This document shows positions 3,124 to 64,000 of a stretch of 64,000 bases of DNA, piece after piece; positions within the stretch are counted from its first letter, which is position 1; every line of letters begins with the position of its first letter. Below the pieces are notes generated by a model. That model ran no database searches, was not told where the DNA came from, and was given only the letters and a program-made list of their open reading frames with translations. The position numbers and the translations under genes are program-made. The DNA is from Escherichia phage DK-13. The stretch lies in sequence record MT611523.1; one strand, written 5' to 3'.

Positions 3124-4289
3124 CAGTTAAATCTATGCAGCGCGAAGGCTTTCCTAATATCAGCATCCGCCTTTACGAAGATTATGATGCATGGCTTGAG
3201 CACCGTTTTGTGGAACTAGCTGCTACCTTTACAACGTTAACCATGCGCGATTCCCTTTACGGAAGAAACGAGGGGCTCTTGCAATTCTATGATACGAAAA
3301 ACCTACATACAAAAATGAATGGTGAACAGGTTATTCAGATTTCTGTTAAGAATGCCAACTCTGACCGAACCCAATCTAGAATATATGGAAGTAAACACTT
3401 TGCCGTTTCCGTGGATTCAAAGGGTGATAACATAATTACAATTCAGCTGGCTCCTATTCACGAAATTGAAGACTTGAAATTTAGTCGTATGTTTTACCCG
3501 AGCGTACAGGAAACATTAGTCGAAATGACCGGGGTAATTTATCAAGATAGACCATTACTTTCCCCACCAATAAACGGCATAAACGTTTATGCTCCTAACG
3601 TTCCATGGTGTGATTCGATGAACCAATATATGGAATTCATAAGGGAAGTTGGCCTGTCGGTAGAAACTGATAAATTTGTTTTTGTATGGGAAGATATTGA
3701 TGGGATAAGTATCCAGGATTATGAATGGCTAACATCACAAGAGCCAATTAATTTTGTGGTGGGGGAACCTCGATTGGTTGGGCAATTTGTACAAAACCTG
3801 ACTACTCCTTTAGCCTTCGATTTTGAATGGTTAACAAAGGCAAACCAACACACAAGAAAACCATACGAAAACGCAACCGTGTATGCACATTCATTCCTTG
3901 ATAAGAACGCAACCAGAATAACTTTTGGGGAAGGACAAAACAGTATTCTGGTATCTCGTTCCGGTGGCTATGCAGATTACACATACCGAAATGGTTTCGA
4001 GGAAGCACAACGATTGATAACCATGTCACAATATGACGGTTACGCGCATTGCAAAACGTACGGGAACTTTGAATTAACTCCGGGCGATAAGATAAATTTC
4101 TTTGACCCTAAGAACCAATTCAAATATGATTTTTACGTAGACGAAGTTATTCATGAAGTGAGTAACAATACATCAATTACAAACCTCTATATGTTTACCA
4201 ATGGTAAGCCTATCGAAGTTGAAGAACCACCGAAGGTTAAAAATGAACTTAAAACTGATTCTGCCGACGAAGAAAATACAGCTGGGTGA
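3120..4289 (+). CDS. 27: baseplate hub protein gp27
   Basis: 389 aa; ATGA overlap with gene 51 stop; synteny and size (T4 gp27 about 391 aa). Confidence 0.8.
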
Positions 4290-21258: not shown

Positions 21259-21294
21259 TGGGAGCATTATACTCTGCTCCCATGAGTTTGTACA
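21259..21294 (-). promoter_or_regulatory. early promoter with inverted repeat spanning -10
   Basis: - strand TGTACA-aactcatGGGAGCAgag-TATAAT-gCTCCC; arms GGGAGCA/TGCTCCC. Confidence 0.5.
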
Positions 21295-52520: not shown

Positions 52521-52555
52521 GGGGTCATTATACTCTGACCCCAAGAGTTTGTACA
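52521..52555 (-). promoter_or_regulatory. early promoter with inverted repeat spanning -10
   Basis: - strand TGTACA-aactcttGGGGTCAgag-TATAAT-gACCCC; arms GGGGTCA/TGACCCC. Confidence 0.5.
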
Positions 52556-52932: not shown

Positions 52933-52967
52933 GGGAACATTATACTCTGCTCCCAAGAGTTTGTACA
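52933..52967 (-). promoter_or_regulatory. early promoter with inverted repeat spanning -10
   Basis: - strand TGTACA-aactcttGGGAGCAgag-TATAAT-gTTCCC; arms GGGAGCA/TGTTCCC (one G-T wobble position). Confidence 0.5.
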
Positions 52968-59464: not shown

Positions 59465-61297
59465 TTATAGCGTCGCATTCATCCAGTCTTTACGCTGCTG
59501 GGAATCTTTACCGAATAGCATTTCGAACAGTTCTTTCCAGTTGTCGGGCAATTGAACAACTTCGAATACCGGTTCGAGCAATACACGTTTATACTCGGCA
59601 TCTTCCAGAGAACCAAGCCCCTTGATATATCGGATGGTGTGCTTCGGAAGTTTATCCTTAGCTTCTTCATAGTCAGGGAGAGAATAGAACCATTCTTGTT
59701 TATCTTTGAGCTGTGCAATAATAACAGGAGTTTTCACAAAGCGAATTCGTCCTTCATGGAACAACTCTGGCCAGTTACTGAAAAACGCCAATAATGATGG
59801 ATAGATACTACCGACACCATCCACATCCGCATCTGTCATGATAGCAATGTTTCGGTAATTCATATTCTCGGCCGGTTGTCCAATCGTTAATCCAGTAATT
59901 GCACACACATCAAAGGCTTCAGCGTTCTTCATAACTTCAACAGCTTTCAGACCCCATGTGTTTTTAAACTTACCACGTAATGGATAAGCACCTTGCAATT
60001 CACGGTCACGAACCTTGATAAATGGACCGGTTGCAGAATCACCTTCAGTCAGGAACAGAGTTGTTTCCAACTTATCATTGCCCCATTCGTTGGCTTTGAT
60101 ATGCTTTTGTACCTTGGCCTTTGAAGCTTTCTTATTTGCTTTAGTCTCTGCTGCTTTCTCTGCAGCCAATTTACGGGCTAATGCAGCTTCAACAATCGGC
60201 ATAATCAGCGGTTCATTTTTCAGAATAGCTTGCGCGATTTTCTTGGCATCAATCTTAATGTGATTTCGAATTTCGCCAGCCGGAGAAGTCAATCGCTCCT
60301 TGGTCTGGGAATCAAATCGCATGTTGCTCATATCGCGGATGAACATAAGCATGGTGAGACATTCTTTAACTCGTGCCTTGGTCACCTCGATGCCTTTATA
60401 TTTGCGCTTAATCGCAGGCTGAAGGTATTCACAGATATCATCCATAACACATTCAACGTGGTGTCCGCCATTCTTTGTATGAATATTGTTGACATAAGTC
60501 AGCTGACGGAAACCGTCCGGGCTGGTCGTAAAGGCCATCGATACTGTATCAGTTTCCTGGATAACAACTTCAGTTCCGAATTGCTTGGAGAACTTCTTGA
60601 AATTACCATCAACCTTTTTACCATTAAAGGTGAACTGAATATCCGGATAAACAACCGCGAGAGTCTGTAAACGGTCTAATGTAATATCCAGATAAATCTG
60701 GGACAGACTATTTTCTTCAAAGTGACTAAAATCTGGAACAAATATAACAGTTGTACCTTTGCCCTTAGATTTCTTGGTGGACCAACCTTTGTTTTCCATA
60801 CCGTTGGAGCAGTTAACAGTAATTTCATTTGTCCCATCAGCGGTAATCCCGGTGAACAATACAGAGAAAATATTGGTCAGAGAAGACCCGACACCATTCA
60901 TCCCGCCAGTTTTACGTTCAGCATCATCACCGAAGTTGCCACCGGCTTTTGGAATAGTCCATGCTGCAACAGGGCCAGGGATTTGTTCACCGTTTTGGTC
61001 TGTAACCATTGCTTGTGGAATACCACGGCCATTATCAGAAACCGAAATCTGATTATCTTTAATTTGGACATCAATTTTATTGGCAAATTTAAAACTGGTG
61101 CGAATTGCTTCATCAACAGAGTTATCGATAATTTCATCAATCAGTTTTACAATACCAGGAACATAGCTTACGGACTTATATTCACCAAACAAGAATCGCT
61201 CATGCGCTTCATTTGAACTGGAACCAATATACATCCCGGAACGTTTTTTGATATGCTCGACGTCCGAGAGTACTTTAATTTCATTATTAATCATCAT
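59465..61297 (-). CDS. 39: DNA topoisomerase II large subunit gp39 (GyrB-like ATPase), unsplit
   Basis: 610 aa; GHKL ATPase motifs (...DNGRGIP..., GGMNGVGSS) plus TOPRIM-type C-terminal region; single continuous ORF, no gene-60 split. Confidence 0.9.
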   Translation of the reverse strand: MMINNEIKVLSDVEHIKKRSGMYIGSSSNEAHERFLFGEYKSVSYVPGIVKLIDEIIDNSVDEAIRTSFKFANKIDVQIKDNQISVSDNGRGIPQAMVTDQNGEQIPGPVAAWTIPKAGGNFGDDAERKTGGMNGVGSSLTNIFSVLFTGITADGTNEITVNCSNGMENKGWSTKKSKGKGTTVIFVPDFSHFEENSLSQIYLDITLDRLQTLAVVYPDIQFTFNGKKVDGNFKKFSKQFGTEVVIQETDTVSMAFTTSPDGFRQLTYVNNIHTKNGGHHVECVMDDICEYLQPAIKRKYKGIEVTKARVKECLTMLMFIRDMSNMRFDSQTKERLTSPAGEIRNHIKIDAKKIAQAILKNEPLIMPIVEAALARKLAAEKAAETKANKKASKAKVQKHIKANEWGNDKLETTLFLTEGDSATGPFIKVRDRELQGAYPLRGKFKNTWGLKAVEVMKNAEAFDVCAITGLTIGQPAENMNYRNIAIMTDADVDGVGSIYPSLLAFFSNWPELFHEGRIRFVKTPVIIAQLKDKQEWFYSLPDYEEAKDKLPKHTIRYIKGLGSLEDAEYKRVLLEPVFEVVQLPDNWKELFEMLFGKDSQQRKDWMNATL

Positions 61298-61319
61298 CTT
61301 TCCTCTTGTGTATGGAGGT

Positions 61320-61346
61320 ATTATAAGTCACATATTTTAAAGCAAA
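61320..61346 (-). promoter_or_regulatory. MotA-dependent middle promoter upstream of gene 39
   Basis: - strand TTTGCTTTA (MotA-box-like), 12-nt spacer, TATAAT; overlaps T-run of upstream terminator. Confidence 0.5.
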
Positions 61347-61362
61347 AAGGCCCGAAGGCCTT
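61343..61362 (-). terminator. rho-independent terminator
   Basis: - strand AAAGGCCTTCGGGCCTTTTT right after stop of the 61363..61761 gene. Confidence 0.65.
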
Positions 61363-61761
61363 TTATTTGAATCGAAGCTGCTCTAACATTTTAATAGCTT
61401 GTAGACGTCCGGCTTCAGTTTTAACCGTAATAATAACATCACCGCCGGTAACAACGATATCCTCTTTTGATTCCTGTTCGGTTATTTCAGAATCACATTC
61501 CGGGACTTCTTCAAAATATTTAAATTCATCACCAAAAATAAGACCGGTTCCATTACGACTATGGAAAGAAAACCCAGTTCCATCGATAGTACTAAATTCC
61601 GTAACAACATTTGCTTCCATCTTAGTGACTGAAAACTCTTTGGTAGTAACCAAATCAATGATAGAGGTTCCTTGTTGGTTCAAAATGCTACCAGGCATAC
61701 CGACATGTTTAAGGAAGCCATCTAAATCTTTAATGCAATAACTCTTTCCAATTTTAAACAT
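61363..61761 (-). CDS. hypothetical protein
   Basis: Start moved to ATG after GAATGAGGATATT; about 132 aa. Confidence 0.5.
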   Translation of the reverse strand: MFKIGKSYCIKDLDGFLKHVGMPGSILNQQGTSIIDLVTTKEFSVTKMEANVVTEFSTIDGTGFSFHSRNGTGLIFGDEFKYFEEVPECDSEITEQESKEDIVVTGGDVIITVKTEAGRLQAIKMLEQLRFK

Positions 61762-61768
61762 AATATCC

Positions 61769-62029
61769 TCATTCGAATCGGATGGTTGAATTCTTAAACA
61801 GCAATCCAGAACAAACGGTTCCTTCAACTTTCTTACCAGTTGGGCCCACGGCTGTAAAACCTGTGTGTTGAAAATCATCTTTACCACAAGAGAACCAGTT
61901 ATAACCGGTGATTTGGATTTGCTCATAGCCGTTTGCATCTAATACACGAATGGCATTATCTGCATCAGTACAACCAGCCAATGAAACCGCCAGTACCAGT
62001 GCTGCAATAGAACGATTAATGTATTTCAT
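61769..62029 (-). CDS. predicted lipoprotein
   Basis: 86 aa; signal peptide with lipobox LAGC (MKYINRSIAALVLAVSLAGCTDA...). Confidence 0.55.
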   Translation of the reverse strand: MKYINRSIAALVLAVSLAGCTDADNAIRVLDANGYEQIQITGYNWFSCGKDDFQHTGFTAVGPTGKKVEGTVCSGLLFKNSTIRFE

Positions 62030-62035
62030 AATTCC

Positions 62036-62212
62036 TCACTTAGTCAGCAGGTCGTAAAAACCGCCATTAACATGTTTAGGAGCCGAGACTAACCGAACAG
62101 CCAGCCGATGGCAATCAGGACAAACATCATTATCTCTTTCAGAGATTTTCTTGATTTTTTCGTATTCTTTTGCGCAGTCATTGGATTGGCATTTGTAATC
62201 ATAAAGTGGCAT
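62036..62212 (-). CDS. FmdB-type zinc-ribbon protein (58 aa), not in ORF track
   Basis: MPLYDYKCQSNDCAKEYE...DNDVCPDCH; SD AAGGAATAAC. Confidence 0.5.
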   Translation of the reverse strand: MPLYDYKCQSNDCAKEYEKIKKISERDNDVCPDCHRLAVRLVSAPKHVNGGFYDLLTK

Positions 62213-62213
62213 G

Positions 62214-62588
62214 TTATTCCTTAAAATGTGCTTTCAACATCTGGTACACGGTCCAGGCTTCAGAGTTATTAGAAATTGTGATTTTAGTCAAAGGGAATTC
62301 GCTTGGTTCAAATGCTTCATCAGCGTCTTCGCATTCATCTTCAGTATCGTCATCTTTTTCTTCTTCAAAGAAACGACGCTCATCTTCCTTTATGAATATT
62401 CTCTCTATTCCACCGGTCGAAAATTCTATCCGATATACATCACCACCTTCAATTCCGACTGGTCTAAATCCTTCACCATTGATTATAGCATCAGCTATAT
62501 TATCATTATCAGAGCATAACAAACGAAATCTGCTTTCAGCAACATTATCTTTAAAATAATACCATTTATCAGTTTCAAATTTCAACAT
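62214..62588 (-). CDS. hypothetical protein with strongly acidic segment
   Basis: Start moved to ATG after GGAAGGAGACTTATC; about 124 aa; EEEKDDDTEDECEDADEAFE. Confidence 0.5.
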   Translation of the reverse strand: MLKFETDKWYYFKDNVAESRFRLLCSDNDNIADAIINGEGFRPVGIEGGDVYRIEFSTGGIERIFIKEDERRFFEEEKDDDTEDECEDADEAFEPSEFPLTKITISNNSEAWTVYQMLKAHFKE

Positions 62589-62805
62589 GATAAGTCTCCT
62601 TCCAAAAATCTGTACCATCTTCTGATTCTTCGCGGAACAGCGCATAGCTAGGTAATTCCGCACCTTCATACGCATACACATAAATGATATCAGTGGTGCA
62701 AAGAAATTCATTGATGTTTTTCTTAACAATCACTTTATCACTTTCAGCGGTTTCCCAGAACTCTTCAGCGGTCAGGGAAGTGGTCACACAATCTTCATTA
62801 AACAT
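62575..62805 (-). CDS. hypothetical protein
   Basis: Start moved to ATG after CAATGAGGAGAATATT; about 76 aa. Confidence 0.45.
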   Translation of the reverse strand: MFNEDCVTTSLTAEEFWETAESDKVIVKKNINEFLCTTDIIYVYAYEGAELPSYALFREESEDGTDFWKETYHVEI

Positions 62806-62850
62806 AATATTCTCCTCATTGATAGGGCAAAACCCTATCATTTTTATAAT

Positions 62851-63342
62851 TTAGGCACGATGAATATCAGCATACTCAACGATAAAGCTTTCAGGAACCA
62901 CCTTAAAGGTTCCAAGGAACACGATGTTATAGAGCTTAACGCCTTTTTCAACCCACTGGTCTGTGATGTAACCAGACATGCTAGTGGTTTCATAAGTACC
63001 AAAAGGTTCGTCAACATATTCAAACGGTTTAGGTGAAACAAAAAAGACACCTTTGCCCAATTTCCATTTAAAATCAACCCCAACATGAGACTGGTCAATG
63101 GTTTCAACTTCTTCGGTCACAGGAGCGATGTACCCAGTAAATTCGGTTGATTCCAGGAATTTAGGATGTACATAAGCCAATTGAGTTTCAGTCTGGCCAT
63201 TTTTAGGAATAATACGCACTTTAACTTCTTTAATTCCACCTACTAAATTAGTGCGAAGACCCACAACCTCAACAAAACGACCAGCAGCTTTAGAACGAGA
63301 TTCTTTAGAAACACGTGCAATATCACCAACTTCAACTTTCAT
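62851..63342 (-). CDS. hypothetical protein; candidate MotB-like by position/size; paralog of the next gene
   Basis: 163 aa; basic beta-rich N-terminus MKVEVGDIARVSK...; C-terminus ...GYITDQWVEKGVKLYNIVFLGTFKVVPESF similar to 63419..63889. Confidence 0.4.
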   Translation of the reverse strand: MKVEVGDIARVSKESRSKAAGRFVEVVGLRTNLVGGIKEVKVRIIPKNGQTETQLAYVHPKFLESTEFTGYIAPVTEEVETIDQSHVGVDFKWKLGKGVFFVSPKPFEYVDEPFGTYETTSMSGYITDQWVEKGVKLYNIVFLGTFKVVPESFIVEYADIHRA

Positions 63343-63378
63343 AATTTTCTCTCTTGGTTAATAAGTTTATTCTCCAGT

Positions 63379-63413
63379 GGGGCCATTATACTCCGGCCCC
63401 AAGAGTTTGTACA
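63379..63413 (-). promoter_or_regulatory. early promoter with inverted repeat spanning -10
   Basis: - strand TGTACA-aactcttGGGGCCGgag-TATAAT-gGCCCC. Confidence 0.5.
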
Positions 63414-63418
63414 CAAAT

Positions 63419-63889
63419 TTAATTAAAAATTTCAACAGCCATGGAACGTGGTACAACAGTAAATTCACCAGCATGGACAACGTTCAGGAGTTCAACACCA
63501 TCTTCAATCCACTGGTCTGTTACCCAACCACAAATGGAACTATTAAATGGACGTTTGATTTGAACTGGTTTACACAACAAGTCAATAGGGTCACCCAGCT
63601 CGCTAACTTCTTCCAGCAGTACAGATTCACGCGGATAAAGGATAGCTTCAAGATTGTCACCTGATTCATTGACTGCAGTAAATTCAAAAATGCTTTGGTG
63701 ATTGTGGTACTTAACTGTTTTAACGGTAAATGGAGCAAATCCAAAAATACCTTTCAGTACCCGCCAACCGGCATTCAATGCATTAGTATTATCAAAATCA
63801 CCATATCCAACAAGTTGATAGGTTTTGTCAACTTTGATAGGAGTTTCTTCAACTTCTTTGAAGAGTTCAATCTCAGCTTCATAAACCAT
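63419..63889 (-). CDS. hypothetical protein, tandem paralog of 62851..63342; reading frame stays open upstream to the window end
   Basis: C-terminus ...CGWVTDQWIEDGVELLNVVHAGEFTVVPRSM; no in-frame stop between 63890 and 64000, so the true start may lie outside the window. Confidence 0.45.
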   Translation of the reverse strand: MVYEAEIELFKEVEETPIKVDKTYQLVGYGDFDNTNALNAGWRVLKGIFGFAPFTVKTVKYHNHQSIFEFTAVNESGDNLEAILYPRESVLLEEVSELGDPIDLLCKPVQIKRPFNSSICGWVTDQWIEDGVELLNVVHAGEFTVVPRSMAVEIFN

Positions 63890-64000
63890 AATTTTTTCTA
63901 CTTCATTTGTATCAAGGCGACGTGCATGTAGAATATATGCTTTATCAAACCAGTTACTTTTTACAAAAGTTTCAACAATAAATTCACCTTCACCTAAAGC

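What the first reader, a model, noticed from the sequence alone, without database searches (positions are those of the whole stretch)
62851..64000. Tandem paralogous genes upstream of gene 39, each with its own promoter; second copy runs off the window
The 163-aa and at least 156-aa ORFs share a conserved C-terminal about 40 aa (G(Y/W)(I/V)TDQW(V/I)E.GV.L.N(I/V)V..G.F.VVP.S) but have different N-termini. The first has a basic beta-rich N-terminus and sits where T4 places motB, a DNA-binding protein I recall as associating with H-NS. The second frame stays open to the window edge.
Basis: partly seen in the sequence, partly recalled or inferred. Interest (0 to 1): 0.45.

Follow-up and report, generated by a model that had tools for sequence, protein, structure and literature searches.

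The report
Phage motB and motB.1 genes
These two neighbouring genes are motB and motB.1 of a T4-like phage, a pair already published as sharing a C-terminal domain, so the finding is correct but ordinary.

Summary
ORF1 (62851-63342, minus strand, 163 aa) is MotB (Pfam PF17613, E 5.5e-52). It sits in T4 gene order: 39, 39.1, 39.2, goF, cef, motB, motB.1.

ORF2 (63419 to beyond 64000) is the last 193 residues of a 250-aa MotB.1. Its start lies 171 nt past the window edge.

The shared C-terminus is significant (BLASTP E 3e-12; Pfam motB hit E 2e-8). Patterson-West et al. 2021 already described MotB and MotB.1 as tandem genes with a common C-terminal domain and different N-termini. Their Table S4 lists the SP18 ortholog of ORF2. 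Kim et al. 2025 described the MotB.1 N-terminus as an LSm-like barrel.

"Each with its own promoter" is half right. motB has a strong T4-type early promoter wrapped in a covarying hairpin, a known promoter-early stem-loop (PeSL) cassette. In close relatives motB.1 starts on the stop codon of an upstream small ORF and has no promoter of its own.

Small additions: this genus carries two tandem homologous N-terminal modules in MotB.1 (hhalign 96.7%). The shared domain is acidic and models as a five-stranded beta unit. The duplication predates the T4/SP18 split. Verdict: already known, low interest.

The parts
62851..63342 (-). motB coding sequence (163 aa plus stop), the MotB nucleoid-associated DNA-binding protein ortholog
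   Evidence: Pfam PF17613 E 5.5e-52 over residues 1-159. phrog_1671 E 2.4e-67. 100% identical to MotB of Escherichia phage DK-13. Annotated motB at the same place in SP18 and UPEC01.
63151..63342 (-). MotB N-terminal domain (residues 1-64): a basic, KOW-like small beta-barrel
63052..63150 (-). MotB linker (residues 65-97), low-confidence and acidic, variable in length across the family
   Evidence: pLDDT is below 50 for residues 71-84. Other MotB proteins carry a 20-aa insertion here (alignment A2).
62854..63051 (-). MotB C-terminal domain (residues 98-163). The part shared with MotB.1 is residues 105-156 (62875-63030).
   Evidence: pLDDT is 90-96, with five strands at 98-157. BLASTP to ORF2 gives E 3e-12. 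Columns invariant in both paralogs: D, W, E, G, L, N, V, G, V.
63343..63418 (-). motB.1-motB intergenic cassette of PeSL type: an AT-rich tract, -35 GTGTACA (TGTACA at 63413-63408), -10 TATAAT (63390-63385), and a Shine-Dalgarno-like GAGAG at about 63349-63353
   Evidence: Promoter scan gives 10/12 matches. The same element is present in T4 as GTTTACA-N17-TATAAT. The motif TACAAACTC-N9-GAGTATAAT occurs 4 times in the window against 0.09 expected, always on the minus strand.
63378..63401 (-). 8-bp hairpin whose 8-nt loop and closing pair hold the -10 hexamer (UGGGGCCG / GAGUAUAA / UGGCCCCA)
   Evidence: RNA fold -15.8 kcal/mol, z -2.8. On 25 distinct instances 96.5% of cells pair, against 37-55% when the 3' partner is slid, and 5 of 8 pairs show changes on both sides.
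63419..64000 (-). motB.1 coding sequence, C-terminal 193 codons plus stop (residues 58-250 of a 250-aa protein). The first 57 codons lie beyond the window.
   Evidence: phrog_2333 E 3.2e-56. 99% identical to the 250-aa P0001. 97.6% nucleotide identity to contig L043, where the gene starts 171 nt further upstream. Annotated motB.1 in SP18.
63845..64000 (-). MotB.1 N-terminal module A, C-terminal part (residues 58-109). This is the module type found in the 141-aa and 180-aa MotB.1 proteins of many Tequatrovirus-like phages.
   Evidence: Alignment A3. In the AF2 model module A is beta-alpha-beta-beta-beta-alpha-beta at residues 35-106.
63602..63844 (-). MotB.1 N-terminal module B (residues 110-190), the ortholog of the T4 MotB.1 N-terminal (LSm-like) domain
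   Evidence: Residues 112-251 of the UPEC01 ortholog are 45% identical to the whole T4 MotB.1, E 5e-34. The AF2 model repeats the module A pattern at residues 117-188. hhalign of A against B gives probability 96.7%, E 3.2e-10, over 76 columns.
63422..63601 (-). MotB.1 C-terminal domain (residues 191-250), homologous to the MotB C-terminal domain
   Evidence: Pfam motB positions 118-152. Five strands at residues 202-247. 81% identical to T4 MotB.1 and 54% to the window's own MotB over the 37-aa core.
63888..63915 (-). Weak promoter-like match (TTGATA-16-AATTAT) in front of the internal ATG at 63889. It lies inside the motB.1 coding sequence and is probably not a promoter.
   Evidence: 9/12 matches. 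The scan found 10 such sites in 2.8 kb against 9.0 expected. The frame is open upstream and is coding in relatives.

Best explanation
The window comes from a T4-like phage of the genus Gaprivervirus. The two ORFs are its early genes motB and motB.1.

Shown by homology and synteny:
- ORF1 is the ortholog of T4 MotB.
- ORF2 is the ortholog of T4 MotB.1, enlarged by a second copy of its N-terminal module.

Taken from experiments on T4: MotB is an abundant early protein. It binds host and phage DNA without sequence preference, compacts the nucleoid, changes how H-NS sits on DNA, de-represses H-NS-silenced genes, is toxic when expressed alone, and doubles burst size.

Inferred here:
- In this phage, DNA binding rests mainly on the basic KOW-like N-terminal barrel.
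- The C-terminal five-stranded beta unit that MotB shares with MotB.1 is acidic in both proteins. It is more likely a protein-protein module (self-association along DNA, or docking to one common partner) than the DNA-contacting surface.
- MotB.1 would then bring two LSm/SH3-like barrels, rather than a DNA-binding barrel, to the same partner.

Expression, inferred from sequence: motB.1 is translated as the second gene of a transcript that starts upstream of a small ORF beyond the window. The cassette between motB.1 and motB is a promoter-early stem-loop (PeSL). Its hairpin can form only in read-through RNA and would attenuate or stabilise it, while its promoter restarts transcription for motB.

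The duplication that made the two C-terminal domains is old. It predates the split between T4 and SP18-like phages.
For: Identity:
- Pfam and PHROG matches.
- 96% nucleotide identity to annotated Gaprivervirus genomes, and T4 synteny.
- Homolog lists in which every hit carries PF17613.

Published biology: PMC6070864, PMC7827196 and PMC12449154 for MotB. PMC12152347 for the MotB.1 N-terminal fold, and for the finding that a T4 motB.1 deletion does not change burst size or latent period.

Charge: MotB residues 1-60 have pI 10.1. The shared domain has pI 4.4-4.6 in both proteins. Every MotB.1 examined has pI 4.6-5.2.

Age of the duplication: over the core, orthologs are 76-81% identical and paralogs 46-54%.

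Expression:
- Promoter scan and T4 counterpart.
- TAATG overlap with the upstream ORF.
- An upstream promoter-like site in relatives.
- Hairpin covariation and stability.
- The PeSL description, with measured promoter and terminator activity in RB49/phi1 (PMC2839356).
Against: - No experiment exists for this phage's proteins.
- This MotB is acidic overall (pI 5.96, against 9.23 for T4), so T4-like DNA coating is not guaranteed.
- The protein-protein role of the shared domain is inference from charge and conservation only. No multimer model was run.
- The motB.1 start and its lack of a promoter come from relatives at 96-98% identity, not from this genome.
- The hairpin has no U-tract, so it is not a canonical intrinsic terminator.
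Confidence: 0.9

Rival explanations
1. The shared C-terminal domain is the DNA-binding (OB-fold) domain. Both MotB and MotB.1 would then be nucleoid-binding proteins that differ only in their accessory N-termini.
Confidence: 0.25
2. MotB.1 is an RNA-binding LSm-like protein that acts on phage or host mRNA. Its similarity to MotB is only a leftover of domain shuffling with no shared function.
Against: MotB.1 had no effect in the published mRNA reporter assay, and multimer models were not confident. The C-terminal domain is the most conserved part of the protein: the run C214-H233 is invariant at all but two positions in alignment A3. That argues against a functionless remnant.
Confidence: 0.2
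3. The C-terminal similarity is a recent tandem duplication or gene conversion within this genome.
For: The genes are adjacent and in the same orientation.
Against: Over the core, the paralogs in one genome are 54% identical, while the orthologs in T4 are 76% (MotB) and 81% (MotB.1) identical. Both genes are present side by side in T4, T6, RB-type, SP18-type and other genera.
Confidence: 0.02

Closest known systems
Bacteriophage T4 MotB (Pfam PF17613; Patterson-West et al. 2018 and 2021; Son et al. 2021)
   Same: Full-length homology, the same position between cef and motB.1, the same two-domain layout (KOW-like N-terminal barrel plus conserved C-terminal beta domain), and the same early promoter cassette upstream.
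   Different: About 53% identical to a Tequatrovirus MotB cluster (P0192). Acidic overall (pI 5.96, against 9.23 for T4) because the linker and C-terminal domain carry more acidic residues. Only the N-terminal barrel stays basic. No functional data exist for this ortholog.
Bacteriophage T4 MotB.1 (phrog_2333; 'Category 2-4' MotB homologs of Patterson-West et al. 2021; LSm-like family of Kim et al. 2025)
   Same: The same C-terminal domain (81% identical over the core), an orthologous N-terminal module B (45% identity to T4 MotB.1 over its whole length), and the same position immediately upstream of motB. The SP18 ortholog is listed in that paper's Table S4.
   Different: 250 aa instead of 143. 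It carries a conserved, disordered leader motif and two tandem homologous N-terminal modules (A plus B), where T4 has one. Module A is the type found alone in the 141-aa and 180-aa proteins of other T-even phages.
PeSL, promoter-early stem-loop cassettes of T4-type phages (Arbiol et al. 2010, Genome Biol Evol 2:140)
   Same: An intergenic sigma-70-like early promoter with an AT-rich upstream tract and a GGGG...CCCC stem-loop overlapping the -10 box. It is repeated several times per genome in the variable early regions.
   Different: PeSLs were described and tested in RB49 and phi1. Here the element is in a Gaprivervirus and in T4 itself. Its promoter, terminator and recombination activities were not tested for this copy. 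The covariation count is mine.

Membership tests
MotB (Pfam PF17613) | Full-length match to the family profile above the curated cut-off | tested here: met
   176.3 bits against a 25-bit cut-off, residues 1-159 on profile positions 1-158 of 162. phrog_1671 E 2.4e-67.
MotB (Pfam PF17613) | Conserved genome position: early-strand gene between cef and motB.1, upstream of gene 39 | tested here: met
   The window order 39, 39.1, 39.2, goF, cef, motB, motB.1 matches T4 and SP18.
MotB (Pfam PF17613) | N-terminal KOW-like barrel plus a conserved C-terminal beta domain | tested here: met
MotB (Pfam PF17613) | Highly basic protein (T4 MotB pI 9.23) | tested here: not met
   pI 5.96, net charge -2. Only residues 1-60 are basic (pI 10.1). 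Family members range from pI 5.1 to 9.4, so this is not a strict family feature.
MotB (Pfam PF17613) | Non-specific DNA binding, co-purification with H-NS and StpA, toxicity in E. coli | not testable with these tools
   Known only for T4 MotB (PMC6070864, PMC7827196).
MotB.1 (phrog_2333) | C-terminal domain homologous to the MotB C-terminal domain, with the DP.DLL...GWVTDQWIEDGVELLNVVH motif | tested here: met
MotB.1 (phrog_2333) | N-terminal LSm/SH3-like barrel unrelated to the MotB KOW domain | tested here: met
MotB.1 (phrog_2333) | A single N-terminal module, as in T4 (143 aa) | tested here: not met
   Two tandem homologous modules: hhalign 96.7%, E 3.2e-10, BLASTP 28% identity, E 2e-4. This is an architectural variant within the family.
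MotB.1 (phrog_2333) | Gene immediately upstream of motB on the same strand | tested here: met
PeSL (promoter-early stem-loop) | Sigma-70-like early promoter with an AT-rich upstream tract, in an intergenic space | tested here: met
   TGTACA-17-TATAAT, 10/12 matches, preceded by TTTTTAATTAAATTT.
PeSL (promoter-early stem-loop) | Stable stem-loop (GGGG...CCCC) overlapping or next to the promoter boxes | tested here: met
   -15.8 kcal/mol. 96.5% of cells paired, and 5 of 8 pairs with changes on both sides.
PeSL (promoter-early stem-loop) | Repeated in the genome, preferentially in variable early regions | tested here: met
   4 copies in the window on the early strand. 37 loci in IMG/VR, several per genome.
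PeSL (promoter-early stem-loop) | Measured promoter and terminator activity; recombination into mini-circles | not testable with these tools
   Shown only for RB49 and phi1 cassettes (PMC2839356).
OB-fold cold-shock DNA-binding domain (proposed for the MotB C-terminal domain) | OB topology and structural neighbours of the cold-shock / S1 type | tested here: inconclusive

The most novel reading that the evidence does not exclude
The acidic C-terminal barrel shared by MotB and MotB.1 is a self- and cross-association domain, or a docking domain for one common host partner such as H-NS/StpA or RNA polymerase. The co-transcribed, very acidic MotB.1 would then cap, titrate or redirect MotB on the nucleoid, for instance by limiting MotB spreading or toxicity. 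The doubled LSm-like module in this genus would add a second binding valency. The pair would be a two-component nucleoid-remodelling system rather than two independent proteins.
Probability: 0.15. Interest if true: 0.45.

Novelty: already known. Interest (0 to 1): 0.12.

Why it matters
The finding matters little as a discovery. The gene pair, its shared domain and its different N-termini are published, and the ortholog of this very protein is listed in the published table.

Three points are useful for people working on MotB:
- The shared domain is acidic and modelled as a small beta unit whose structural neighbours are SH3-like barrels. This shifts the likely DNA-binding surface to the N-terminal KOW-like barrel and suggests a protein-protein role for the shared domain.
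- MotB.1 proteins are built from shuffled modules: a leader motif, one or two LSm-like modules or a KOW barrel, and the common C-terminal domain.
- The T4 reference sequence truncates MotB.1 by a single extra G. Published work on the '13.8 kDa' MotB.1 may therefore have used a protein that lacks most of the shared domain.

Tried and rejected
- PADLOC defence models found nothing for MotB, MotB.1, the upstream small ORF or the GoF-like ORF.
- An Rfam scan of 61200-64000 gave only a chance-level snoRNA hit, E 0.15.
- A PDB sequence search with the shared-domain profile gave only chance hits, E 0.45 or worse.
- The first viral-contig pattern had a wrong spacer (N10) and found nothing. It was corrected to N9.
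- The extra N-terminal domain of the 248-aa MotB.1 forms (module C) shows no significant similarity to modules A or B (hhalign probability 1% and 20%).
- A profile of modules A and B gives only weak, non-significant scores for the upstream 85-aa ORF (7 bits), for GoF, and for the other neighbouring T4 and window ORFs that scored at all; T4 MotB.2 gave no hit even at E 10.
- The shared-domain profile against 1.84 billion cluster representatives found no members outside small phage-type proteins. The few long hits match through short repeats and were disregarded.
- Son et al. 2021 (NAR) is not held in the library. Its conclusions are cited only through papers that cite it.
- The plus-strand ORFs across the region (58, 95 and 78 aa) overlap the two genes and have no support.
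- Recent duplication or gene conversion was rejected on identity values.

Full report
**What is in the window.** On the minus strand, the ORF listing gives a 163-aa ORF at 62851..63342 and a frame that ends at 63419 and stays open to base 64000. That frame holds 193 in-frame codons. The ATG at 63889, which gives '156 aa', is internal.

Downstream on the same strand lie genes matching Cef (PF24050, E 4.9e-23) and GoF (phrog_622, E 1.3e-29). After them come a 58-aa ORF and an 86-aa ORF at the positions of gp39.2 and gp39.1 in SP18, and then the topoisomerase large subunit, gene 39. The 2.7 kb at 61300-64000 is 94-96.5% identical to Gaprivervirus phages such as UPEC01 and SP18. Gene order matches T4: 39, 39.1, 39.2, goF, cef, motB, motB.1, then motB.2 or a small ORF, then dexA.

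**ORF1 is MotB.** It matches Pfam PF17613 end to end (176 bits, E 5.5e-52) and phrog_1671 (E 2.4e-67). It is 100% identical to MotB of Escherichia phage DK-13. It is about 53% identical to P0192, a 162-aa MotB cluster of Tequatrovirus-like phages, and 76% identical to T4 MotB over the 37-aa conserved core of the shared domain.

**ORF2 is MotB.1, truncated by the window edge.**
- It matches phrog_2333 (E 3.2e-56) and, at its C-terminus, Pfam motB (34.7 bits, above the 25-bit cut-off).
- The annotated relatives encode 251 aa, named 'motB.1' in SP18 and 'MotB domain-containing protein' in UPEC01.
- The closest database protein, P0001, has 250 aa and differs from the window fragment at 2 of 193 residues.
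- Contig L043 carries P0001 and is 97.6% identical to the window over 658 nt. There the gene starts 171 nt beyond the point that corresponds to base 64000.
- In L043, UPEC01 and SP18 the start ATG overlaps the stop of an upstream 85-101-aa ORF (TAATG).

**The shared C-terminus.** BLASTP between the two window proteins gives 24/52 identities, E 3e-12. An alignment of 20 C-terminal domains from both families has nine invariant columns (D, W, E, G, L, N, V, G, V). Over the 37-residue core, orthologs are 76% (MotB) and 81% (MotB.1) identical between this phage and T4, while paralogs are 46-54% identical. The duplication is therefore older than the split of the two genera.

**This is published.**
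- Patterson-West et al. 2021 (PMC7827196) state that T4 MotB and MotB.1, encoded by adjacent genes, share a conserved C-terminal domain and differ in the N-terminal region. They say one gene may have arisen by duplication of the other, and that 41 phage genomes, T4 included, carry both.
- Their Table S4 lists SP18 gp011 (MotB) and gp012 (YP_003934637, the ortholog of ORF2).
- Kim et al. 2025 (PMC12152347) describe the MotB.1 N-terminus as an LSm-like five-stranded barrel shared with GoF and Frd.2. They report that a T4 motB.1 deletion has normal burst size and latent period and no effect in their mRNA reporter assay.
- T4 MotB is toxic and binds modified and unmodified DNA without specificity. 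It co-purifies with H-NS and StpA and raises burst size two-fold (PMC6070864). Later work is summarised as compaction of host and phage DNA and relief of H-NS silencing.

**Anatomy from structure prediction.** Both models use AlphaFold2 with family alignments.
- *MotB* (pLDDT 82): an N-terminal four-stranded unit at residues 8-58, a low-confidence linker (pLDDT below 50 at residues 71-84), and a C-terminal five-stranded unit at 98-157 with pLDDT 90-96.
- *MotB.1*, modelled on the full-length P0001 (pLDDT 76): a disordered leader at 1-27, and two units with the same beta-alpha-beta-beta-beta-alpha-beta order at 35-106 and 117-188. A five-stranded C-terminal unit follows at 202-247.
- The tool does not say which domain gave which hit. 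I therefore cannot decide between the published OB-fold assignment of the MotB C-terminal domain and an SH3-like topology.
- No solved structure is detectable by sequence.

**Two N-terminal modules.** The two units of MotB.1 are homologous: BLASTP gives 28% identity (E 2e-4) and hhalign on family alignments gives 96.7% probability, E 3.2e-10, over 76 of 81 columns. Module B is the ortholog of the T4 MotB.1 N-terminus. Module A is the type found alone in the 141-aa and 180-aa proteins of many T-even phages. The Gaprivervirus protein thus joins the two N-terminal types in one chain. They may correspond to the separate 'categories' of the 2021 paper, but I did not check that assignment.

A profile of the shared domain searched against 1.84 billion cluster representatives finds only 35 proteins, of which I fetched 21. 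Those fetched are small proteins of the phage type. They include further combinations, such as a KOW barrel plus leader motif plus a MotB.1-type C-terminal domain. The family is narrow and built by module shuffling.

**Charge and the likely division of labour.**
- T4 MotB has pI 9.23. This MotB has pI 5.96, yet its first 60 residues keep pI 10.1.
- The shared domain is acidic in both proteins (pI 4.4-4.6).
- All 26 MotB.1 proteins examined have pI 4.6-5.2.

From this I infer, without a direct test, two things. DNA binding sits in the N-terminal KOW-like barrel. The shared domain serves self-association or docking to a common partner. The published alternative, DNA binding by an OB-fold C-terminal domain, stays open at lower probability.

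**Promoters.** The motB.1-motB spacer carries GTGTACA-N17-TATAAT (10/12 matches to consensus) at 63413..63385. T4 has GTTTACA-N17-TATAAT at the same place.

The motif TACAAACTC-N9-GAGTATAAT occurs four times in the window, always on the early strand in front of an ORF, against 0.09 expected. It also occurs at 37 loci in IMG/VR, several per genome. In all 35 distinct instances the six bases on either side of (A/G/T)GAGTATAAT pair with each other, in 13 different arm combinations. On 25 distinct sequences, 96.5% of cells pair (37-55% with slid partners) and 5 of 8 pairs change on both sides. In addition, no shuffle out of 500 reaches the observed covariation score.

The wobbles are G-T only on the sense strand. 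The RNA hairpins fold at -11 to -16 kcal/mol. This is the promoter-early stem-loop cassette of Arbiol et al. 2010. They list stem-loops that overlap the -10 box, note the GGGG...CCCC arms, and measured promoter and terminator activity in RB49/phi1. So motB has its own early promoter.

motB.1 has no promoter of its own. The 9/12 site at 63915..63888 lies inside the gene. In relatives the nearest upstream candidate (GTGTACA-N17-CATAAT) lies before the small ORF that precedes motB.1.

**Verdict.** The motB identification and the H-NS recollection are correct. The finding is an already described gene pair. The increments here are modest:
- the doubled N-terminal module;
- the acidity and beta-unit nature of the shared domain;
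- the age of the duplication;
- the covariation count for the promoter hairpin;
- the frameshift in the T4 reference sequence.

Noticed in passing
L004 (NC_000866 / AF158101) 3792-4151 against L003 (MT984581) 3510-3941: The T4 reference genome has one extra G inside the GWVTDQWIEDG motif of motB.1 (ATTGGAAG against ATTGAAG). This gives a 119-aa, 13.8-kDa protein that lacks most of the shared domain. A re-sequenced T4 and all relatives encode the full 143-aa form, and the downstream DNA is otherwise identical. Kim et al. 2025 quote 13.8 kDa for their MotB.1, so the published assays may have used the truncated form.
   Followed up: partly
window 21266-21292, 52527-52553, 52939-52965, 63385-63411 (all minus strand); loci L006-L042: There is a repeated class of T4-type early promoters in which the spacer (-23 to -18) and the discriminator (-6 to -1) form a covarying hairpin around the -10 hexamer, with 13 arm variants and G-T wobbles only on the sense strand. 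It matches the PeSL cassettes of Arbiol et al. 2010. The 3' arm makes a GC-rich discriminator.
   Followed up: yes
window 61363-61761 (minus strand) and 62214-62588 (minus strand): The ORF next to gene 39 (132 aa) belongs to the same PHROG as the window's GoF (phrog_622, E 1.2e-17 and 1.3e-29) and matches the C-terminus of the goF PHROG (E 8.4e-8). goF therefore also has a paralog in this locus. The 191-aa reading from ATG 61938, annotated in UPEC01, overlaps the gp39.1-like ORF and is probably too long.
   Followed up: partly
L001 6880-7137 (minus strand), L002 6879-7184, L043 230-535; beyond the window edge: The small ORF translationally coupled to motB.1 (85-101 aa, phrog_17795) aligns end to end with the profile of MotB.1 modules A and B, but only weakly (7 bits, E 0.0045 in an 11-sequence search). 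It may be a free-standing copy of the same module, or the match may be chance.
   Followed up: partly
P0001 residues 1-27 (beyond the window); also P0248-P0250, P0253, P0254, P0256, P0257: A conserved short motif, (L/F)IDFDV.S.YV.P.KPL, is disordered in the model (pLDDT below 50). In KOW-type and some LSm-type relatives it sits directly in front of the shared C-terminal domain. In this phage the two N-terminal modules lie between it and that domain. Its function is unknown.
   Followed up: no
window 62851-63342 (minus strand) and alignment A2: MotB proteins vary widely in charge (pI 5.1 to 9.4). This one is acidic overall (pI 5.96), while T4 MotB is described as highly basic (pI 9.23). T4-like DNA coating may not hold for all orthologs.
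   Followed up: partly
P0260 (43 aa, from the representative search): This is a chimeric peptide: the first 17 residues are nearly identical to the T4 MotB.2 N-terminus (one D for N substitution) and are joined to the last 26 residues of the MotB.1 C-terminal domain. It looks like a deletion joining motB.2 and motB.1 at a short ED(G) match, and recalls the 29-aa 'Category 3' peptide reported for RB69.
   Followed up: no
window 62820-62840: An 8-bp hairpin (UGAUAGGG UUUUG CCCUAUCA on the minus strand) lies between the motB stop and the cef start. The scan calls it terminator-like only for the plus strand, where the T-run lies.
   Followed up: no
L043 1364-1918: The metagenomic contig with the closest MotB.1 (99% identical) carries a 184-aa MotB with the 20-aa linker insertion, not the 163-aa form of the window. 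The two adjacent genes therefore have different histories, in line with exchange at the intervening promoter cassette.
   Followed up: no
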